Shown here: positions 1 to 5,137 of the stretch, one piece after another
How positions within the stretch are numbered: position 1 is the first letter of the stretch
Layout: each line of letters begins with the position of its first letter
NCBI RefSeq assembly: GCF_937863155.1
Contig: NZ_CALMFB010000054.1
Coordinates: 29,975 to 93,974, forward strand
Length of the DNA stretch: 64,000 nt
Direction of reading: 5' to 3'
From: an uncultured Brevundimonas sp.
GTDB taxonomy: Bacteria > Pseudomonadota > Alphaproteobacteria > Caulobacterales > Caulobacteraceae
The notes under the pieces: model-generated
Databases searched by the model: none
What the model saw: only the letters and a program-made list of their open reading frames with translations
Told to the model about the DNA's origin: nothing
Program-made: the position numbers and the translations under genes

Positions 1-34
1 CGGGATTTCCCCCGGCGCACTCAATCCTCAGCTT
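1..34 (-). ncRNA. Probable group I intron (IC3-like), 5' end only
   Basis: After GGACUU the sequence is AAGCUGAGGAUUGAGUGCGCCGGGGGAAAUCCCG rather than the tRNA 3' half. GAGU can pair with exon ACUU with a U.G pair at the splice site (P1), followed by a GAAA-capped P2-like stem. Truncated by the window edge. Confidence 0.65.
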
Positions 35-69
35 AAGTCCGTTGCGTCTACCAGTTTCGCCACGCCCGC
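33..69. repeat. att direct repeat, left copy
   Basis: ttaagtccgttgcgtctaccagtttcgccacgcccgc. Confidence 0.92.
35..69 (-). tRNA. trnL: tRNA-Leu(UAA) 5' exon (35 nt); remainder lies beyond the left window edge
   Basis: Minus strand reads GCGGGCGTGGCGAAACTGGTAGACGCAACGGACTT: acceptor 5' strand, Leu-type D arm, anticodon 5' stem and loop up to the first anticodon base. Confidence 0.85.
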
Positions 70-82
70 CAGCCGAGCGGGC

Positions 83-112
83 TCTATACCTGCGTTCGTG
101 CCCGCGCGCCAA
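83..112 (-). promoter_or_regulatory. Putative sigma70 promoter for tRNA-Leu, located inside the element
   Basis: TTGGCG (112-107), 18 nt, TATAGA (88-83), then a GC-rich discriminator-like stretch before the tRNA start at 69. Confidence 0.5.
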
Positions 113-258
113 GGCGGCGGGCATTCTTCAACCACCGGGACGCGGCGACCCGTCTCCGGGCGCGATTACCCCCAAAGCGCGCGCGGCTCTCGCATAGGCG
201 CAGGCGCTCCCTATATCGGCGATATGCCGACGCTTCGCCGCCGTTCCTAGGTCCACCC

Positions 259-1185
259 TTGAGCTTTCTCGTTCCGCTGTCGCCCGCGCCTCCAGTGCCC
301 CCGCCCGGGTGGATGTTCGTTGAGCAGCGCTTCTCGGCCTTCATGCAGGGGCTGGGGATCACAGAGCAACAGGCGGTCGACGGTACACGTAAGCAGACGG
401 GCGTTCGGGCAGCCCTGAATCGCTGGTACTACGGCCATGGCGAGGCGACGCAGAACAGTCTGTTGATCGGGTCCTGGGCCAAAACGCTGAGAGTGGCCCC
501 GCCGCGCGACATCGACGTCCTGTTCTGCATGCCTGTCGATATCTTCCATCGCTACGAGGCCCGCGTCGGCAACCGCCAGTCCCAACTGCTGCAGGAAGTC
601 CGCTCGGCGCTGTCGCAGACCTACCCTCAAACGGCGATCCGTGGAGATGGCCAGGTCGTGGTCGTGCCCTTCGCGACCATGCCCGTCGAGGTCATCCCGG
701 CCTTCCGCCTCGACACCGGCCAATATCTGATCGCCGATGCGAATGGCGGCGGTTCGTACCGCAAGACCGATCCGTGGGCTGAGCTCTCGGTGCTCGAAGC
801 GTCGGATCGCGCAACCTTCGGCTCCACGCGTCGCCTGATCCGGATGGCCAAGCAGTGGCAGCGTCATGCCCATGCGCCGATCAAGTCGTTCATGCTCGAG
901 CGCCTGGCCGTGGCCTTCCTTGAAACCTGGCAGCACGCGACCGCAGGCTATGAGGACTGGATGGTCCGCGACTTCTTCGAGTTCATGCTCCGGTATGTCG
1001 GCGGCTCGGTCCAGATGCCTGGAACCGGTGAGTGGGTATCGATCGGCGACGCCTGGGCGCCGCGAGCGCGAACGGCCTTGGCCACCGCCCAGCGCGCCTG
1101 CCAATATGAGGCGGTAAACGCCGATCGGCGTGCGGGCGCGGAATGGCGCTCGCTGTTCGGCTCCGCGATTGGACCCATGTCATGA
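259..1185 (+). CDS. SMODS-family nucleotidyltransferase (CD-NTase-like cyclic oligonucleotide synthase)
   Basis: GSWAK...PPRDIDV catalytic motif, QSQLLQEVR, RGDGQVVVVPF, third acidic residue in VEVIPAF. Start may be TTG 259 or ATG 313. Confidence 0.85.
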   Translation: MSFLVPLSPAPPVPPPGWMFVEQRFSAFMQGLGITEQQAVDGTRKQTGVRAALNRWYYGHGEATQNSLLIGSWAKTLRVAPPRDIDVLFCMPVDIFHRYEARVGNRQSQLLQEVRSALSQTYPQTAIRGDGQVVVVPFATMPVEVIPAFRLDTGQYLIADANGGGSYRKTDPWAELSVLEASDRATFGSTRRLIRMAKQWQRHAHAPIKSFMLERLAVAFLETWQHATAGYEDWMVRDFFEFMLRYVGGSVQMPGTGEWVSIGDAWAPRARTALATAQRACQYEAVNADRRAGAEWRSLFGSAIGPMS

Positions 1186-1718
1186 CCGATACTGTCAGCC
1201 CGGCTGAAACCGACTCCCGAGACGCCATTCTGGCGGAGGCCCGCCGGCTGGCTGTGGACGCCCTCTATTCGGAGAAGGGTCATTTCGAGGCTGCCAGCGC
1301 CTGGCGCGGCCGCACCTACTCGCTTGGCATTCCCGCAGCGCTCATCAGCGCTACCGCCGGCGCCACCATTCTGGCGGATATGGACCCTGCCATCGGCGGT
1401 TCGCTCGCGCTTGTCGGCGCTGCCATCACAGCCCTGATGACCTTTCTCAATCCTTCCGAACGGGCGTCGCAACACCACCGCAGCGGCGTCTCCTACGGCG
1501 GCCTCCGGCGCGCTCTGCGCCAGTTCGTCCAGATCGACGTCGGCATTATGGACGTTGCGGCGCTCCGGTCGCGCCTGACCGAGCTGACGGAGAAGATCGG
1601 GGCCTTGCAATCCGAGTCGCTGCCGATCCCGTCCGCGGCTCACAAGAAGGCGTTCAAGTCGATCCAGGGCGGATCGGCGGAATACACCCCACAGGAACTG
1701 GCGCTCGCAGGAGGCTAG
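1182..1718 (+). CDS. SLATT-domain 2TM effector
   Basis: ATGA overlap with the synthase stop; two hydrophobic helices followed by FLNPSERASQHHRSGVSY; HFEAA upstream motif. Confidence 0.75.
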   Translation: MTDTVSPAETDSRDAILAEARRLAVDALYSEKGHFEAASAWRGRTYSLGIPAALISATAGATILADMDPAIGGSLALVGAAITALMTFLNPSERASQHHRSGVSYGGLRRALRQFVQIDVGIMDVAALRSRLTELTEKIGALQSESLPIPSAAHKKAFKSIQGGSAEYTPQELALAGG

Positions 1719-2572
1719 AGCCCGAGCGCATCCACGAAGGCTCGGACCTGCCCATAGGCGTCCGTCTGCCACTGCTCCGGAGTACGGTCGCCCAAGGCCG
1801 CGCTTGTCTCTACGAACTCGCGAACGCAGGCAGGTCCGTGGTCATCGACATCCCTGAACTTGCTGGCGATCTTCTCATAGCCCTGAAGAGCGCTAGCCCG
1901 TTCCAGGAGGGGCCGGCAGGCGTCGGCCAGGGCTTCGGGCCCGCCCGGGTAGTTTCGGACGCAATAATAGATGTCGTAGGCGTCCTTGCGCTTGAAGCGG
2001 CCGACGAGGGCGTGGCCTTTCATGCCGAGAAGCGCCGGGATCGAGGCCACTGCGATCTTTACGCGATTGGTCCCCGACCGTCCCGGCATCCGGTCCTCAA
2101 TCTCGACCAAAGCCTGGAAGTCAATCGCCAGATCGGCCCCGTCCGCCTTCTGGACGGCGAAGTCCTCCACGAGCGGCCGCTCCCGCTTCGGCACCTCCGC
2201 GTCCCGCGGCATCAGGAAGTCGACGACAACCTTGATCGGGGGACCGCCATCTTCGGCAGGAACTTCCCGGGTCAGCTGGAACGCCCGATCCTCGGGGCCG
2301 CGCTCGTAGCCATGGGCCTGAAGCGCGTGAACCAGGTCTGCGTATTCGGTATCCGCGAGCGCGACCGGGTCGAGTGCGAGATCGATGTCGAACGTCCCGA
2401 CGTGAATCATGTCGTCCGGCTCGAGCAACAGCCACGGCACAGCGCCGCCGACCACGGCGAACTTGCCTTCATAACTGCCGAGGATCTGGCCGATCTCGAC
2501 GAGGGTCTGGCGGACGGCGGCGGTGCTGCGCGCGGGATAGTCCGCCGCGCTCTGCGGTTCCGGCTTCACCAC
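1715..2572 (-). CDS. AbiEii-like nucleotidyltransferase toxin (type IV TA)
   Basis: VVGGAV...GTFDIDL N-terminal motif and K...R..RKDAYDIY C-terminal motif; coupled to the upstream AbiEi-like gene. Confidence 0.7.
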   Translation of the reverse strand: MVKPEPQSAADYPARSTAAVRQTLVEIGQILGSYEGKFAVVGGAVPWLLLEPDDMIHVGTFDIDLALDPVALADTEYADLVHALQAHGYERGPEDRAFQLTREVPAEDGGPPIKVVVDFLMPRDAEVPKRERPLVEDFAVQKADGADLAIDFQALVEIEDRMPGRSGTNRVKIAVASIPALLGMKGHALVGRFKRKDAYDIYYCVRNYPGGPEALADACRPLLERASALQGYEKIASKFRDVDDHGPACVREFVETSAALGDRTPEQWQTDAYGQVRAFVDALGL

Positions 2573-3642
2573 TGGGACACGCTGGCGAGCAGATGGTCTG
2601 CCGCCTCCTGCCCGCGTTCGCCGCCGGTCCCGAGATCAAGGAAGGTCTGCAGCGGGCTGGTCGTCCAGAGGTCTGGAGCCGGCTGACGCAGATCGTCGAA
2701 CAGCTCGGCCTCGTCGGGGATCAGGATCTCGACATTGGCCCCGCTTTCGGCGGGCTTGAGCTGCAGATGATCGACCAAGGCCGGCAGGGCGCTGGGTTCG
2801 GCGATGAGGTAGGTCATCGGCACGCGTGCGTAAGGCGCCCACCAATCGGCGGCCGTGAAGGACATCGCCGCGGCCCGGCCTGAGGACTGAGCCTCACGCA
2901 GGGCGTATCGCAGCGCCACATCCAGCCGCTTCCCGTGCAGGGTCGTATAGTAGCGCCGCCGCTCCCCAACGGGTGCCTCGTAGGCCTCTCGCCAGCCGCG
3001 CAGGAGACCTTCGCGATCGGTCAGCTGCAGGCCCTCGGAATCGGCCGAGGCCCATTCACGGTCGATCAGCGCGCGCCGCACGTTGCTGACCTGGCCCAGG
3101 CTCACTTGCGCGGCTTCGGCGAGGTCCGTCACCTTCCAGGCCCGACCGGGCGTCTGAAGGAGACAACGGAGAACGCGCGCTGATTTCGGTGCGAACGGCG
3201 ACTTCAGCTCGCGCGCGACTGCCTTGGGCTTCTCGGCCGTCTGCCGGTCGATATAGAGGCCCGGGCCGACGATGCGGACGTTGCCCGCGAGATCGAGCCA
3301 GCCCACGCCGGCCTCGTCACACAGGCGCCGGGCGGCATCCGCCATATAGGGGGCTCCCACGAGCACGATGGACTTCATTCCGAGGTTCGCGGCAGCTTGA
3401 AGCGCCTGATCGACGGCGCTGCGGATCACCCGCGGTTGTCCGGAACTCTTCACCTCCATCAATATCGTGAAGCTTCTGGAGGCGATCGAGACATCGGCGA
3501 TGATATCGACGCGTGGGGCGTCGCCCGGTCCCTCGATATCGAGAGACCGTACCTCTACGGTCGGGACGACGGCGAGTATGTCCCGCAGCTCCCCGGCGAG
3601 AGCGCGTTCAGTCTCTTTCACTGAAAGTTCCATTTTCATCAT
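2566..3642 (-). CDS. AbiEi-like antitoxin/transcription regulator with N-terminal PD-(D/E)xK-like region and wHTH
   Basis: VDIIAD...MEVKSSGQPR; wHTH WKVTDLAEAAQVSLGQVSNV; C-terminal TSPLQTFLDL...ERGQEAA. Start uncertain (3660, 3642 or 3633). Confidence 0.7.
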   Translation of the reverse strand: MMKMELSVKETERALAGELRDILAVVPTVEVRSLDIEGPGDAPRVDIIADVSIASRSFTILMEVKSSGQPRVIRSAVDQALQAAANLGMKSIVLVGAPYMADAARRLCDEAGVGWLDLAGNVRIVGPGLYIDRQTAEKPKAVARELKSPFAPKSARVLRCLLQTPGRAWKVTDLAEAAQVSLGQVSNVRRALIDREWASADSEGLQLTDREGLLRGWREAYEAPVGERRRYYTTLHGKRLDVALRYALREAQSSGRAAAMSFTAADWWAPYARVPMTYLIAEPSALPALVDHLQLKPAESGANVEILIPDEAELFDDLRQPAPDLWTTSPLQTFLDLGTGGERGQEAADHLLASVSQW

Positions 3643-3656
3643 TACGTTGAAATAGG

Positions 3657-3673
3657 CCATTTCACTGAAATGG
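3657..3673. promoter_or_regulatory. Palindromic operator between -35 and -10 of the TA promoter
   Basis: CCATTTCA-C-TGAAATGG; minus strand TTGACC, 17 nt, TATTTC. Second copy CTTTCA-C-TGAAAG at 3615-3627. Confidence 0.65.
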
Positions 3674-3699
3674 TCAAGTTCGCTGGCTGATCGCCGCGA

Positions 3700-4995
3700 T
3701 CAGGCACCATTCGAATCCACTGTTTGTCGCTTCGCCGGCTTGGGCTTTCGGACATTGATGGCCGAGGCGTCGAGCACGTTCTTGATGTGAGAGGCGTAGT
3801 ATTTCTCGATCATCTCCACGCTGGTCCGGCAGTTCTTGGCGACCTGATAAATGTCGGCGCCCTCCATGAGCCGCATGGAGATGTAGGTGTGCCGCAGGCT
3901 GTAGGCGGTACGAGGCCTTCCATCCCGGTCCTTCTTCAGGCCGAGTTCGTCCAGGATGGCGTTCAACAGTTCGCGCTGCACCAGACCGAAGACGAGATCG
4001 GTTGGCTGGCCGTTCTTGCGCTTGAGCACCCGTTCGAACGGACGGACGGCTCCGGGCATGCTCTTGCAGTACCCTACCCCACGCTTGCCCCGCACCTCGA
4101 TCTCGAGGATGCGTTCGCCGGTCGCGTCATCCTCAACGATCGAGACGTCTCTGAACTCGAGGCGCTGCGCCTCGTCGGGACGCAGCCCGGTGTTGACCAT
4201 GAACAGCACGAAGTCGTGGAACTGCTCGCACTCGTCGCGCCAGCGCTCCTTTTTCGGGTTCTTCGCGCGCTCGCGCGTCGCTTCGTAGAGGCGCTTGTAC
4301 TCTTCAGGTGAGAACCAAGCCCTGTGGCTCACCTTGCCGGATGCCCGGTACGGGTTGCTCATGTCCGGAAGTGCGGAAATCCACCCTTTCCGGTTCGCGG
4401 TTTTCAGGATCTGCCTAAGACAGACCATCTCGTTATGGAGCGTCTGCCGGCTCGGCCGCTTCCAGATCTTCGCCTTTCCGATCCGTTCTTGCCCCTCCGA
4501 GACGAACCGCACGCGCTGCGGCTCGTCAGGTGGCGTGACACGGTGAAGCCGGTAATCCTGGATCCGGCCGGCGGAGACTTCGGTGATCGGCAAATCGCCG
4601 AAGAACGGGTTGAGGTAGAGACGGATCACCCGCCCCTTCCCAGCGACGTAGTGAGCGTTCCGCTCACCCAACGTCATCGCTTCGAACTCCTTTTCGAAGA
4701 CAGCGGCCGCCTCACGGAAGGTCTTCTCCCCCGGCCGCTTCGGCGTCACACGCTCCGGGACGACGACAGGCATCTCCGGCATCGACGGGAGCTTCCCGGA
4801 CTTGCGGAGACGATCTTCAGCGAGCCGATCGAGATACCAATCGCGCGCGAACTCTCGCGCAAAGGCGACGTTCGTCTCCTTCGTCGACTGACGGTAGTTG
4901 CGGCCGCTCAGATAGGTCGCGCACTGCCAGTATGGGCTGTTTTCGCGACGATAGACGTGGAGCTTGCCCTCCATGAGCGAGTGAGACTCCGACAC
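3700..4995 (-). CDS. Tyrosine recombinase / site-specific integrase
   Basis: TGLRPDEA (Arg), GKRG (Lys), YSLRHTY (H-x-x-R position), MIEKYY (Tyr); adjacent to att. Confidence 0.93.
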   Translation of the reverse strand: MSESHSLMEGKLHVYRRENSPYWQCATYLSGRNYRQSTKETNVAFAREFARDWYLDRLAEDRLRKSGKLPSMPEMPVVVPERVTPKRPGEKTFREAAAVFEKEFEAMTLGERNAHYVAGKGRVIRLYLNPFFGDLPITEVSAGRIQDYRLHRVTPPDEPQRVRFVSEGQERIGKAKIWKRPSRQTLHNEMVCLRQILKTANRKGWISALPDMSNPYRASGKVSHRAWFSPEEYKRLYEATRERAKNPKKERWRDECEQFHDFVLFMVNTGLRPDEAQRLEFRDVSIVEDDATGERILEIEVRGKRGVGYCKSMPGAVRPFERVLKRKNGQPTDLVFGLVQRELLNAILDELGLKKDRDGRPRTAYSLRHTYISMRLMEGADIYQVAKNCRTSVEMIEKYYASHIKNVLDASAINVRKPKPAKRQTVDSNGA

Positions 4996-5021
4996 ATGAC
5001 CTCCTTGCCGCTCGCGGCAAA

Positions 5022-5041
5022 TGTGTAAGTCGTGTGTAAGT
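5022..5041. repeat. Tandem TGTGTAAGT repeats, candidate integrase arm-type sites
   Basis: TGTGTAAGT at 5022-5030 and 5033-5041 between the integrase start and att; inverted repeat GATTTA-N6-TAAATC at 5063-5080. Confidence 0.5.
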
Positions 5042-5089
5042 GTCTACCCGCTCTAACCGATTGATTTAGATACGTAAATCTACGGTAGT

Positions 5090-5131
5090 GGATTTTAAGT
5101 CCGTTGCGTCTACCAGTTTCGCCACGCTCGC
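5090..5131 (-). repeat. att direct repeat, right copy (displaced tRNA-Leu 5' half ending GGACTTAAAATCC)
   Basis: ttaagtccgttgcgtctaccagtttcgccacgctcgc at 5095-5131; continues as an intron-less anticodon loop, then non-tRNA sequence. Confidence 0.92.
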
Positions 5132-5137
5132 GGCGGG

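What the first reader, a model, noticed from the sequence alone, without database searches (positions are those of the whole stretch)
259..1718. Minimal two-gene CD-NTase + SLATT system (type I CBASS-like)
Seen: an intact SMODS nucleotidyltransferase motif set, ATGA-coupled to a 2TM SLATT protein, with no Cap2/Cap3 or HORMA genes. Established: SMODS-SLATT pairs are predicted nucleotide second-messenger defence systems; SLATT effectors are much less characterised than phospholipase, SAVED or STING effectors. Inference: phage-triggered cyclic nucleotide synthesis activates a membrane-disrupting effector. The signal identity cannot be read from the sequence.
Basis: partly seen in the sequence, partly recalled or inferred. 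Interest (0 to 1): 0.7.

Follow-up and report, generated by a model that had tools for sequence, protein, structure and literature searches.

The report
Ordinary two-gene CBASS on mini-island
The two genes are a standard minimal (type I) CBASS anti-phage system, a cGAS-like nucleotide cyclase plus a small two-helix SLATT membrane effector. It is ordinary in kind, but it rides with an AbiE pair and an integrase on a 5.1-kb mobile island inserted into an intron-containing tRNA-Leu gene.

Summary
ORF 259-1185 is a CD-NTase: Pfam SMODS 2e-28, PADLOC CBASS cyclase 7.5e-113. It has G71-S72, D84xD86 and an invariant E144. The AF2 model has pLDDT 94 and its best solved match is P. aeruginosa CdnD (TM 0.82). 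ORF 1182-1718 overlaps it by ATGA and is a SLATT_4 effector with two membrane helices (NCBIfam 4e-34, PADLOC CBASS "2TM" 5.5e-41).

A SLATT_4-type gene sits directly downstream in 74 of 80 related loci; a 4-nt overlap is the commonest junction. Both genes are under purifying selection (dN/dS about 0.1). No Cap2/Cap3 or HORMA genes are present.

The pair shares a five-gene, 5.1-kb island with AbiEii, AbiEi and a tyrosine integrase. Perfect 33-bp direct repeats bound the island. It sits in the 5' exon of a tRNA-Leu(UAA) gene split by a 222-nt group I intron. Same-genus relatives have empty or differently filled sites.

Type I CBASS with SLATT effectors is described and shown to defend E. coli, so this is a new member of a known kind.

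Open points:
- The cyclase lacks the internal protease-sensing loop.
- It has an uncharged Leu/Pro-rich N-terminal tail.
- Its specificity residues (Ile-GS-Trp, lid Glu) fit no published product rule.

Trigger and signal remain unknown.

The parts
259..1185 (+). CD-NTase (SMODS-family cGAS/DncV-like nucleotidyltransferase), 308 aa from TTG 259. Alternative starts are GTG 295 (296 aa) and ATG 313 (290 aa). Residues 1-18 form an uncharged Leu/Pro-rich tail that ends at a conserved Trp.
   Evidence: Pfam and PADLOC matches. NCBIfam CBASS_cyclase_b scores 106 bits, below its 200-bit equivalog cut-off. Catalytic G71-S72, D84, D86 and E144. AF2 model pLDDT 93.9; Foldseek top hit PaCdnD, TM 0.82. TTG 259 and the tail are conserved in L002 with synonymous changes and an in-frame indel.
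1182..1718 (+). SLATT_4 two-transmembrane-helix effector, 178 aa, with ATGA overlap on the CD-NTase stop. An upstream ATG at 1143 is possible but less likely.
   Evidence: NCBIfam SLATT_4 4.2e-34, above cut-off. PADLOC CBASS 2TM effector 5.5e-41. Hydrophobic helices at residues 46-66 and 70-90. All-helical AF2 model, pLDDT 89.5. No solved structural relative.
1715..2572 (-). AbiEii-type nucleotidyltransferase toxin, convergent with the SLATT gene. A co-cargo of the island, not part of CBASS.
   Evidence: Pfam AbiEii 5.9e-08, above cut-off. dN/dS 0.04 against L002.
2566..3660 (-). AbiEi-type antitoxin/regulator, 364 aa.
   Evidence: Pfam AbiEi_2 5.6e-06, above cut-off. dN/dS 0.08.
3700..4995 (-). 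Tyrosine recombinase (integrase) of the island.
   Evidence: Pfam Phage_integrase 2.5e-05; at 24.6 bits it is just below the 27.1 cut-off. Orthologue in L002 at 2e-273. dN/dS 0.06.
33..65 (.). Left copy of the 33-bp att core (TTAAGTCCGTTGCGTCTACCAGTTTCGCCACGC). It is part of the working tRNA-Leu(UAA) 5' exon.
   Evidence: Perfect direct repeat with 5095-5127. Both copies are also present in L002.
5095..5127 (.). Right copy of the 33-bp att core: a displaced remnant of the tRNA 5' half, next to the M28 peptidase gene.
   Evidence: Metagenome contigs are near-identical up to 5131 and diverge beyond it.
35..69 (-). 5' exon of tRNA-Leu(UAA). The 222-nt group I intron starts at window 34 and runs leftwards out of the window; the 3' exon lies about 188-238 nt before the window start.
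   Evidence: Rfam Intron_gpI 41.3 bits, E 1.2e-08, below the gathering score of 50.

Best explanation
This is a functional type I CBASS abortive-infection system.

The enzyme. The first gene encodes a compact CD-NTase. Among solved enzymes it is nearest to clade D. On phage infection it is expected to switch on and make a cyclic oligonucleotide from NTPs, using the G71-S72 / D84 / D86 / E144 active site.

The effector. The second gene is translationally coupled to the first. It encodes a SLATT_4 protein whose two-helix hairpin sits in the inner membrane, with both termini in the cytoplasm. Binding of the signal to its cytoplasmic helical part is inferred to drive oligomerisation and membrane breaching. 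Conserved R113 and the K155/K156 region are candidate binding residues. The infected cell would die before phage release.

The carrier. The pair is cargo of a 5.1-kb integrase-borne island that also carries an AbiE pair. The island moves between Brevundimonas-like hosts by inserting into the tRNA-Leu(UAA) gene.

Shown here: gene identities, fold, catalytic residues, conserved gene pairing, purifying selection, island boundaries, and empty or differently filled sites in relatives.

Inferred from the families: nucleotide synthesis, ligand-gated membrane damage, and phage defence.

Unknown: the trigger and the identity of the signal.
For: - Family matches.
- Catalytic residues and their invariance.
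- Fold: the AF2 model has pLDDT 93.9, and all top Foldseek hits are CD-NTases, led by PaCdnD at TM 0.82.
- Profile search of PDB: it ranks PaCdnD (4e-22), BcCdnD, EcCdnD02 and SeCdnD first. CdnC and CdnE come in only at about 1e-3.
- Gene pairing: a SLATT_4-type gene lies directly downstream in 74 of 80 related loci across many phyla, usually with a 4-nt overlap.
- Selection: dN/dS is 0.10 for the cyclase and 0.12 for SLATT between the two island copies.
- SLATT topology: two uncharged hydrophobic helices, a short acidic loop, and basic flanks.
- Island: 33-bp repeats bracket five genes, and the same island occupies the same site in a Brevundimonas MAG at 85% nucleotide identity.
- Distribution: only 1 of 40 relatives has any CD-NTase hit, a 27%-identical one at another locus, and many have the tRNA directly beside the peptidase gene.
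- Recent spread: island copies in metagenomes differ at only 7-20 of 5131 positions, while 165 bp of the right flank carries 20 differences, about 12%.
- Literature: type I CBASS with SLATT6 effectors restricts phages at least 10,000-fold in E. coli (10.1101/2023.05.21.541620). SLATT effectors are thought to form membrane-breaching oligomers (10.64898/2025.12.03.692087).
Against: - No experiment exists on this subfamily or on any SLATT_4 effector that I could find.
- No SLATT structure is solved, so ligand binding and pore formation are inferences.
- NCBIfam's CBASS cyclase equivalog models score below their cut-offs, 106 against 200 bits.
- Pfam SLATT_4 is below its gathering score for this sequence.
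- The enzyme has no disordered internal loop. The one activation mechanism reconstituted for clade A, D and G enzymes, phage-protease cleavage (PMC12991175), probably does not apply, so the trigger is open.
- No sigma-70-type promoter was found by the simple scan.
Confidence: 0.85

Rival explanations
1. The pair mainly serves the island rather than the host. It would act as an addiction or competition module that kills cells losing the island or acquiring a rival element. Phage defence would be incidental.
For: It is carried, together with a toxin-antitoxin-type AbiE pair, on a very small integrase island. The island is near-identical across hosts whose flanks differ.
Against: The same cyclase-SLATT pair occurs in 74 of 80 loci, and only 4 of the 80 show any gene like this island's AbiE pair or integrase within about 5 kb: the full set in L002, AbiE genes in L004 and L005, and a distant integrase in L067. 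No antitoxin-like partner exists for SLATT. CBASS operons of this architecture do defend against phages.
Confidence: 0.06
2. CBASS and AbiE work as one composite four-gene system, for example with the AbiEii nucleotidyltransferase modifying or sensing the CBASS signal.
For: The genes converge with overlapping stops. AbiE genes accompany the nearest CBASS relatives L002, L004 and L005.
Against: AbiE is absent next to the other 76 related CBASS loci, including L003 at 65% identity. AbiE is a self-contained two-gene system, and here it is on the opposite strand with its own regulator.
Confidence: 0.05
3. The genes are an inactive relic.
For: No promoter-like site was found by the scan. There is no direct expression data.
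Against: Reading frames are intact, catalytic residues are invariant, and dN/dS is about 0.1 for both genes. The island is near-identical in many environmental samples.
Confidence: 0.03

Closest known systems
Type I CBASS operons with SLATT effectors (EcCdnF04-SLATT6 and EcCdnF05-SLATT6; Richmond-Buccola et al., bioRxiv 10.1101/2023.05.21.541620)
   Same: Two-gene operon of a CD-NTase plus a small SLATT membrane effector, with no Cap2/Cap3 or HORMA genes. This architecture is the commonest among type I systems and is proven to restrict phages.
   Different: The effector here is SLATT_4, not SLATT6. The cyclase is nearest to clade D enzymes among solved structures, not the clade F enzymes that were tested. 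No member of this subfamily has been tested.
P. aeruginosa CdnD (PDB 6P82, 6P8J, 6P8U), the cAAA synthase of a type III CBASS
   Same: It is the best sequence hit (profile E 4e-22) and the best structural hit (TM 0.82). It is similar in size and has the same GS / DxD core.
   Different: Identity is only 23%. PaCdnD needs HORMA2 and is paired with the nuclease NucC. It has TGSY and a His at Lid 2, and Asp as the third acid. The window enzyme has IGSW, Glu at Lid 2, Glu as the third acid and an N-terminal Leu/Pro-rich tail.
Protease-activated CD-NTases (EcCdnG, DncV, E. cloacae CdnD; PMC12991175)
   Same: Same enzyme superfamily and the same general logic: an inactive cyclase is switched on late in infection.
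   Different: Those enzymes carry a disordered internal activation loop of about 30 aa. The model here has no residue below pLDDT 50 and no such loop.
ThsH, the SLATT effector of type VII Thoeris (bioRxiv 10.64898/2025.12.03.692087)
   Same: A small SLATT membrane protein used as a nucleotide-signal-activated killing effector. It is predicted to oligomerise, with basic cytoplasmic pockets.
   Different: It is partnered with a TIR enzyme that makes cADPR, not with a CD-NTase.

Membership tests
CBASS (type I) | CD-NTase/SMODS nucleotidyltransferase with the GS motif, the [DE]x[DE] pair and a third acidic residue | tested here: met
   Pfam SMODS 2.3e-28; PADLOC cyclase 7.5e-113. G71-S72, D84, D86 and E144 are all invariant in 28 homologues.
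CBASS (type I) | CD-NTase (Pol-beta-like, bilobed) fold | tested here: met
   AF2 pLDDT 93.9. All 50 listed Foldseek PDB hits are CD-NTases; PaCdnD scores TM 0.82.
CBASS (type I) | Effector gene adjacent and co-directional with the cyclase | tested here: met
   ATGA overlap. The pair is conserved in 74 of 80 related loci.
CBASS (type I) | No ancillary genes: Cap2/Cap3 (type II), HORMA/TRIP13 (type III), or type IV genes | tested here: met
   The island holds only five genes. The neighbours are AbiEii, AbiEi and an integrase. Upstream ORFs have no CBASS hits in PADLOC or Pfam.
CBASS (type I) | Synthesis of a cyclic oligonucleotide that activates the effector, and phage defence by abortive infection | not testable with these tools
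   Needs biochemistry and phage challenge.
SLATT_4 effector family | Match to the curated family model above its cut-off | tested here: met
   NCBIfam NF033632 scores 117.6 bits against a cut-off of 55, and 36 of 37 aligned relatives match it. Pfam PF18186 gives only E = 0.017, 15.3 bits against 27, for this sequence, although 8 relatives match it strongly.
SLATT_4 effector family | Two transmembrane helices as a hairpin between cytoplasmic helical segments | tested here: met
   Uncharged hydrophobic stretches at residues 46-66 and 70-90, joined by the short acidic stretch D66-M-D-P69, with basic flanks. The AF2 model is all-helical, pLDDT 89.5. Membrane insertion itself was not tested.
SLATT_4 effector family | Genomic association with SMODS or SLOG enzymes | tested here: met
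CD-NTase clade D | Groups with clade D reference enzymes rather than other clades | tested here: inconclusive
   The profile search ranks four clade D enzymes first, from 4e-22 to 7e-6. CdnC and CdnE follow at about 1e-3. No tree against the Whiteley 2019 reference set could be built because the table is not held. I saw no clade F structure among the PDB hits.
CD-NTase clade D | Clade D specificity positions that predict cAAA or cAAG: XGSX beginning with S, T or Q, and His or Gln at Lid 2 | tested here: not met
   The family has IGSW and an invariant Glu at Lid 2 (E175). Thr at Lid 1 is kept. No product can therefore be predicted.

The most novel reading that the evidence does not exclude
This CD-NTase subfamily may be switched on by a mechanism not yet described, and may make a signal outside the known clade C/D products.

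- It lacks the internal protease-sensing loop.
- It carries a variable-length (11-97 aa), almost charge-free Leu/Pro/Ala/Gly/Ser-rich N-terminal tail with recurring '(S/T/N)LL(G/S)...P' motifs. The tail ends at a nearly invariant Trp just before the core.
- Its nucleotide-selecting positions (Ile-GS-Trp, invariant Glu at Lid 2, Glu as third acid) fit no published rule.

The tail could be the sensor or an autoinhibitory handle: a tripwire, a degron, or a docking site for a phage or membrane partner.
Probability: 0.15. Interest if true: 0.6.

Novelty: new member of a known kind. Interest (0 to 1): 0.28.

Why it matters
As a CBASS system it adds little. PADLOC-type annotation would call it type I CBASS automatically.

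Three things give it modest value.

1. It is a clean, minimal SLATT_4 example from a subfamily found in many phyla, and no SLATT effector has a solved structure or a defined ligand.
2. The cyclase has no known activation element, so the subfamily is a candidate for finding how loop-less type I cyclases sense phage.
3. The 5.1-kb island (integrase, CBASS and AbiE) is a very compact, recently spreading defence cassette. It rebuilds the 5' half of the genome's only detected UUA-decoding tRNA gene.

Tried and rejected
- Pfam alone is not enough for the effector: SLATT_4 scores E = 0.017. NCBIfam and PADLOC settle it.
- Rfam and ARAGORN on the window alone found nothing at the left edge. The intron lies mostly outside the window and ARAGORN's default ignores introns. 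The upstream contig had to be fetched.
- Formal clade placement failed. The Whiteley 2019 and Millman 2020 tables are not held, and a search for homologue accession WP_076729707 found no paper.
- Foldseek of the SLATT model against PDB gave no significant match; the best E was 0.26.
- I considered D160 ('LIAD') as the third catalytic residue and rejected it. The alignment to PaCdnD D132 and the spacing point to the invariant E144.
- I considered ATG 313 as the start, as in some 290-aa gene calls. I now favour TTG 259, because the conserved Trp and tail lie upstream of 313.
- I considered the tail as a beta-clamp-binding (QLSLF-like) motif. Only 5 of 75 tails have such a pentamer, and the patterns were chosen after looking at the data, so the idea is not supported.
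- A literature search for the Pfam '8xMP' family, which weakly hits 3 SLATT relatives, gave nothing relevant.

Full report
**What is at 259-1718**

Two co-directional ORFs lie on the + strand.

The first ORF (259-1185) matches Pfam SMODS (2.3e-28) and the PADLOC CBASS cyclase model PDLC00814 over its whole length (7.5e-113, 375 bits).
- In the alignment to P. aeruginosa CdnD, the third acidic residue (PaCdnD D132) corresponds to E144. E144 is invariant in an alignment of 28 homologues, as are G71, D84 and D86; S72 is kept in at least 90% of them.
- An AlphaFold2 model built on that alignment is confident: mean pLDDT 93.9, pTM 0.89, no residue below 50.
- All 50 listed Foldseek hits in PDB are CD-NTases. 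PaCdnD leads at TM 0.82 and 23% identity.

The second ORF (1182-1718) starts at the ATG that overlaps the first gene's TGA, giving ATGA.
- It encodes 178 aa with two uncharged hydrophobic helices at about residues 46-66 and 70-90. A short acidic turn joins them, and the flanks are basic. This fits a membrane hairpin with both termini in the cytoplasm.
- It matches NCBIfam SLATT_4 above cut-off (117.6 bits against 55) and the PADLOC CBASS '2TM' effector models (5.5e-41).
- Pfam's SLATT_4 model is sub-threshold for this sequence (E = 0.017).
- The AF2 model is all-helical (pLDDT 89.5).
- It has no significant relative among solved structures, by sequence or by fold.

**Is the pairing real?**

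A scan of one genome per species gave 80 loci encoding relatives of the cyclase at 41-87% identity. They come from Alphaproteobacteria, Acidobacteriota, Planctomycetota, Verrucomicrobiota, CPR bacteria and other groups.
- An iterated profile of the downstream ORF found a homologue directly downstream in 74 of 80 loci.
- Of the six exceptions, two are cut off by contig ends, L079 has an interrupted cyclase reading frame, L067 was not resolved, and L005 and L006 carry a larger 4TM-type effector instead.
- The commonest junction is a 4-nt overlap, 33 of 76, and nearly all others lie within a few nucleotides.
- 36 of 37 aligned partners match NCBIfam SLATT_4.
- The window's SLATT is only 14-22% identical to most of these partners, while the cyclases are 41-55% identical. 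This fits the fast divergence or exchange of effectors reported for type I CBASS.
- Between the window and its closest relative (L002, a Brevundimonas MAG), dN/dS is 0.10 for the cyclase and 0.12 for SLATT. Both genes are maintained.

**Accessory genes and setting**

Nothing resembling Cap2/Cap3, HORMA or TRIP13 lies on either side.

The right-hand neighbours, all on the - strand, are:
- an AbiEii toxin (1715-2572);
- an AbiEi regulator (2566-3660);
- a tyrosine integrase (3700-4995).

A perfect 33-bp direct repeat at 33-65 and 5095-5127 brackets exactly these five genes.

I fetched the contig upstream of the window. The left repeat lies inside a tRNA-Leu(UAA) gene on the - strand.
- Its 5' exon (window 69 to 35) is followed by a 222-nt group I intron. 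Rfam RF00028 scores 41.3 bits, E 1.2e-08, below the gathering score of 50.
- A 3' exon follows the intron.
- The repeat covers tRNA nucleotides 5-35 plus the first two intron bases. The island therefore duplicated the 5' half of the gene and now supplies its first four nucleotides and upstream region.
- ARAGORN's default run on the whole genome finds tRNA-Leu genes only for the CAA, TAG, CAG and GAG anticodons. This intron-containing gene is therefore the only UUA decoder detected.

**The island is mobile**

- The same island sits in the same site in L002 at 85% nucleotide identity, with both att copies.
- Among 40 relatives, none has this cyclase. One has a 27%-identical cyclase at another locus.
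- Many same-genus genomes have an intron-less tRNA-Leu(UAA) directly next to the M28 peptidase gene. Others have the intron, and several have inserts of different sizes between two core copies.
- In metagenome contigs from air, marine, sludge and freshwater samples, the island differs at only 7-20 of 5131 positions. The 165 bp of chromosomal flank beyond 5131 carries 20 differences, about 12%. One contig joins the two flanks without the island.

**How it most likely works**

By family membership it is a type I CBASS.
1. Phage infection activates the cyclase.
2. The cyclase makes a cyclic oligonucleotide.
3. The SLATT protein binds it on the cytoplasmic side and oligomerises.
4. The oligomer breaches the inner membrane, aborting the infection.

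Literature held here supports each family-level step.
- Type I operons with clade D, E and F cyclases and 2TM or 4TM effectors are the commonest. SLATT6 operons give at least 10,000-fold restriction in E. coli (10.1101/2023.05.21.541620).
- Membrane proteins, including SLATT4 and SLATT6, make up more than 40% of CBASS effectors (PMC12480259).
- SLATT effectors are thought to form membrane-breaching assemblies (10.64898/2025.12.03.692087).

Residues kept across both divergent SLATT_4 lineages are E19, Y29, R113, P150, A157 and G164. Together with the basic K155/K156 region, they are candidates for ligand binding or gating. This is inference.

**What cannot be read**

The trigger.
- Phage prohead proteases activate clade A and G cyclases, and about 18% of clade D cyclases, by cutting a disordered internal loop of about 30 aa (PMC12991175).
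- The model here has no such loop.
- Instead, the family has an N-terminal tail of 11-97 aa. It is almost charge-free: Leu 14%, Pro 13%, Ala 12.5%, Gly 10%, Ser 9.5%, and D+E+K+R about 6%. It carries recurring short Leu-rich motifs and ends at a nearly invariant Trp two residues before the [YF][VL]xxRF start of the core.
- In the window the tail is MSFLVPLSPAPPVPPPGW.
- Its conservation in L002, with synonymous changes and an in-frame indel, argues that TTG 259 is the true start.
- Its role is unknown.

The signal.
- The published rules for clade C and D enzymes use the first residue of XGSX and a Gln or His at Lid 2 (PMC13424991).
- This family has IGSW and an invariant Glu at Lid 2 (E175); Thr at Lid 1 (T170) is kept.

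**Clade**

A profile search of PDB sequences ranks the hits as follows:
- PaCdnD, 4e-22;
- BcCdnD, 2e-7;
- E. cloacae CdnD02, 2e-6;
- S. enterica CdnD, 7e-6;
- CdnC, 2e-3;
- CdnE, 3e-3.

The enzyme is therefore clade D-like among solved structures. A formal placement needs the reference table, which is not held.

**Verdict**

The system is an ordinary member of the commonest type I CBASS architecture, and current annotation models already capture it.

Two things lift it slightly. One is the compact mobile island that carries it. The other is a set of untested peculiarities of the cyclase subfamily: no activation loop, the N-terminal tail, and unusual specificity residues.

Earlier notes of this scan list the island, the intron, a promoter-like site and the AbiE pair as separate findings. 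I had reached the island and the intron independently before reading them.

Noticed in passing
window 33-5127: The CBASS pair, an AbiE pair and a tyrosine integrase form a 5.1-kb island bounded by perfect 33-bp direct repeats. The island is near-identical in many metagenomes whose chromosomal flank differs by about 12%, and it is absent from 40 relatives.
   Followed up: yes
It is the only UUA decoder detected in the genome. The intron is present in some same-genus genomes and absent in others. The att core is the 5' half of the tRNA plus two intron bases, which is unusual because integrases normally duplicate the 3' part.
   Followed up: partly
window 5060-5134: The right att copy continues on the island side as ...CTTAAAATCCAC, resembling an intron-less anticodon loop. 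On the chromosomal side it has GCGA instead of GCGG at tRNA positions 1-4 (A4 would mispair with C69). The displaced 5' half looks like a decaying remnant, or comes from a different donor tRNA.
   Followed up: no
window 70-112 (- strand): TTGGCG-N18-TATAGA lies 13 nt upstream of the rebuilt tRNA 5' end, inside the island. It is a weak promoter-like site that the consensus scan did not call (8 of 12 matches).
   Followed up: partly
window 259-312: The cyclase family has a variable (11-97 aa), nearly charge-free Leu/Pro/Ala/Gly/Ser-rich N-terminal tail with recurring short Leu-rich motifs, ending at a nearly invariant Trp. Its function is unknown. Many gene calls (290 aa) cut it off.
   Followed up: partly
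L001 10015-11421 (- strand), about 3.6-5 kb left of the window start: A 468-aa protein matches the PADLOC defence candidate PD-T7-1 (5.6e-65). Nearby are a 731-aa ParB-HTH protein and an endonuclease/exonuclease/phosphatase-family protein. The region left of the tRNA 3' end also looks like variable mobile or defence DNA; its flank is not conserved in most relatives.
   Followed up: no
genome contig C43:45518-45633: An 83%-identical copy of the tRNA-Leu(UAA) 3' exon plus the 3' part of the intron, without a complete tRNA. It may be the distal att repeat of another element that targeted the tRNA's 3' end.
   Followed up: partly
L005 and L006 (Caulobacter and alphaproteobacterial MAGs): Cyclases 54-55% identical to the window's are paired with a roughly 300-aa 4TM-type effector instead of SLATT_4, and have a different N-terminal tail (IIGHNSG...). 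This is an example of effector exchange within the subfamily.
   Followed up: partly
window 2566-3660: The AbiEi partner is long (364 aa). The AbiEi_2 match covers only residues 212-356, and weak wHTH hits lie around 159-207. The N-terminal 150 aa or so are unassigned.
   Followed up: no
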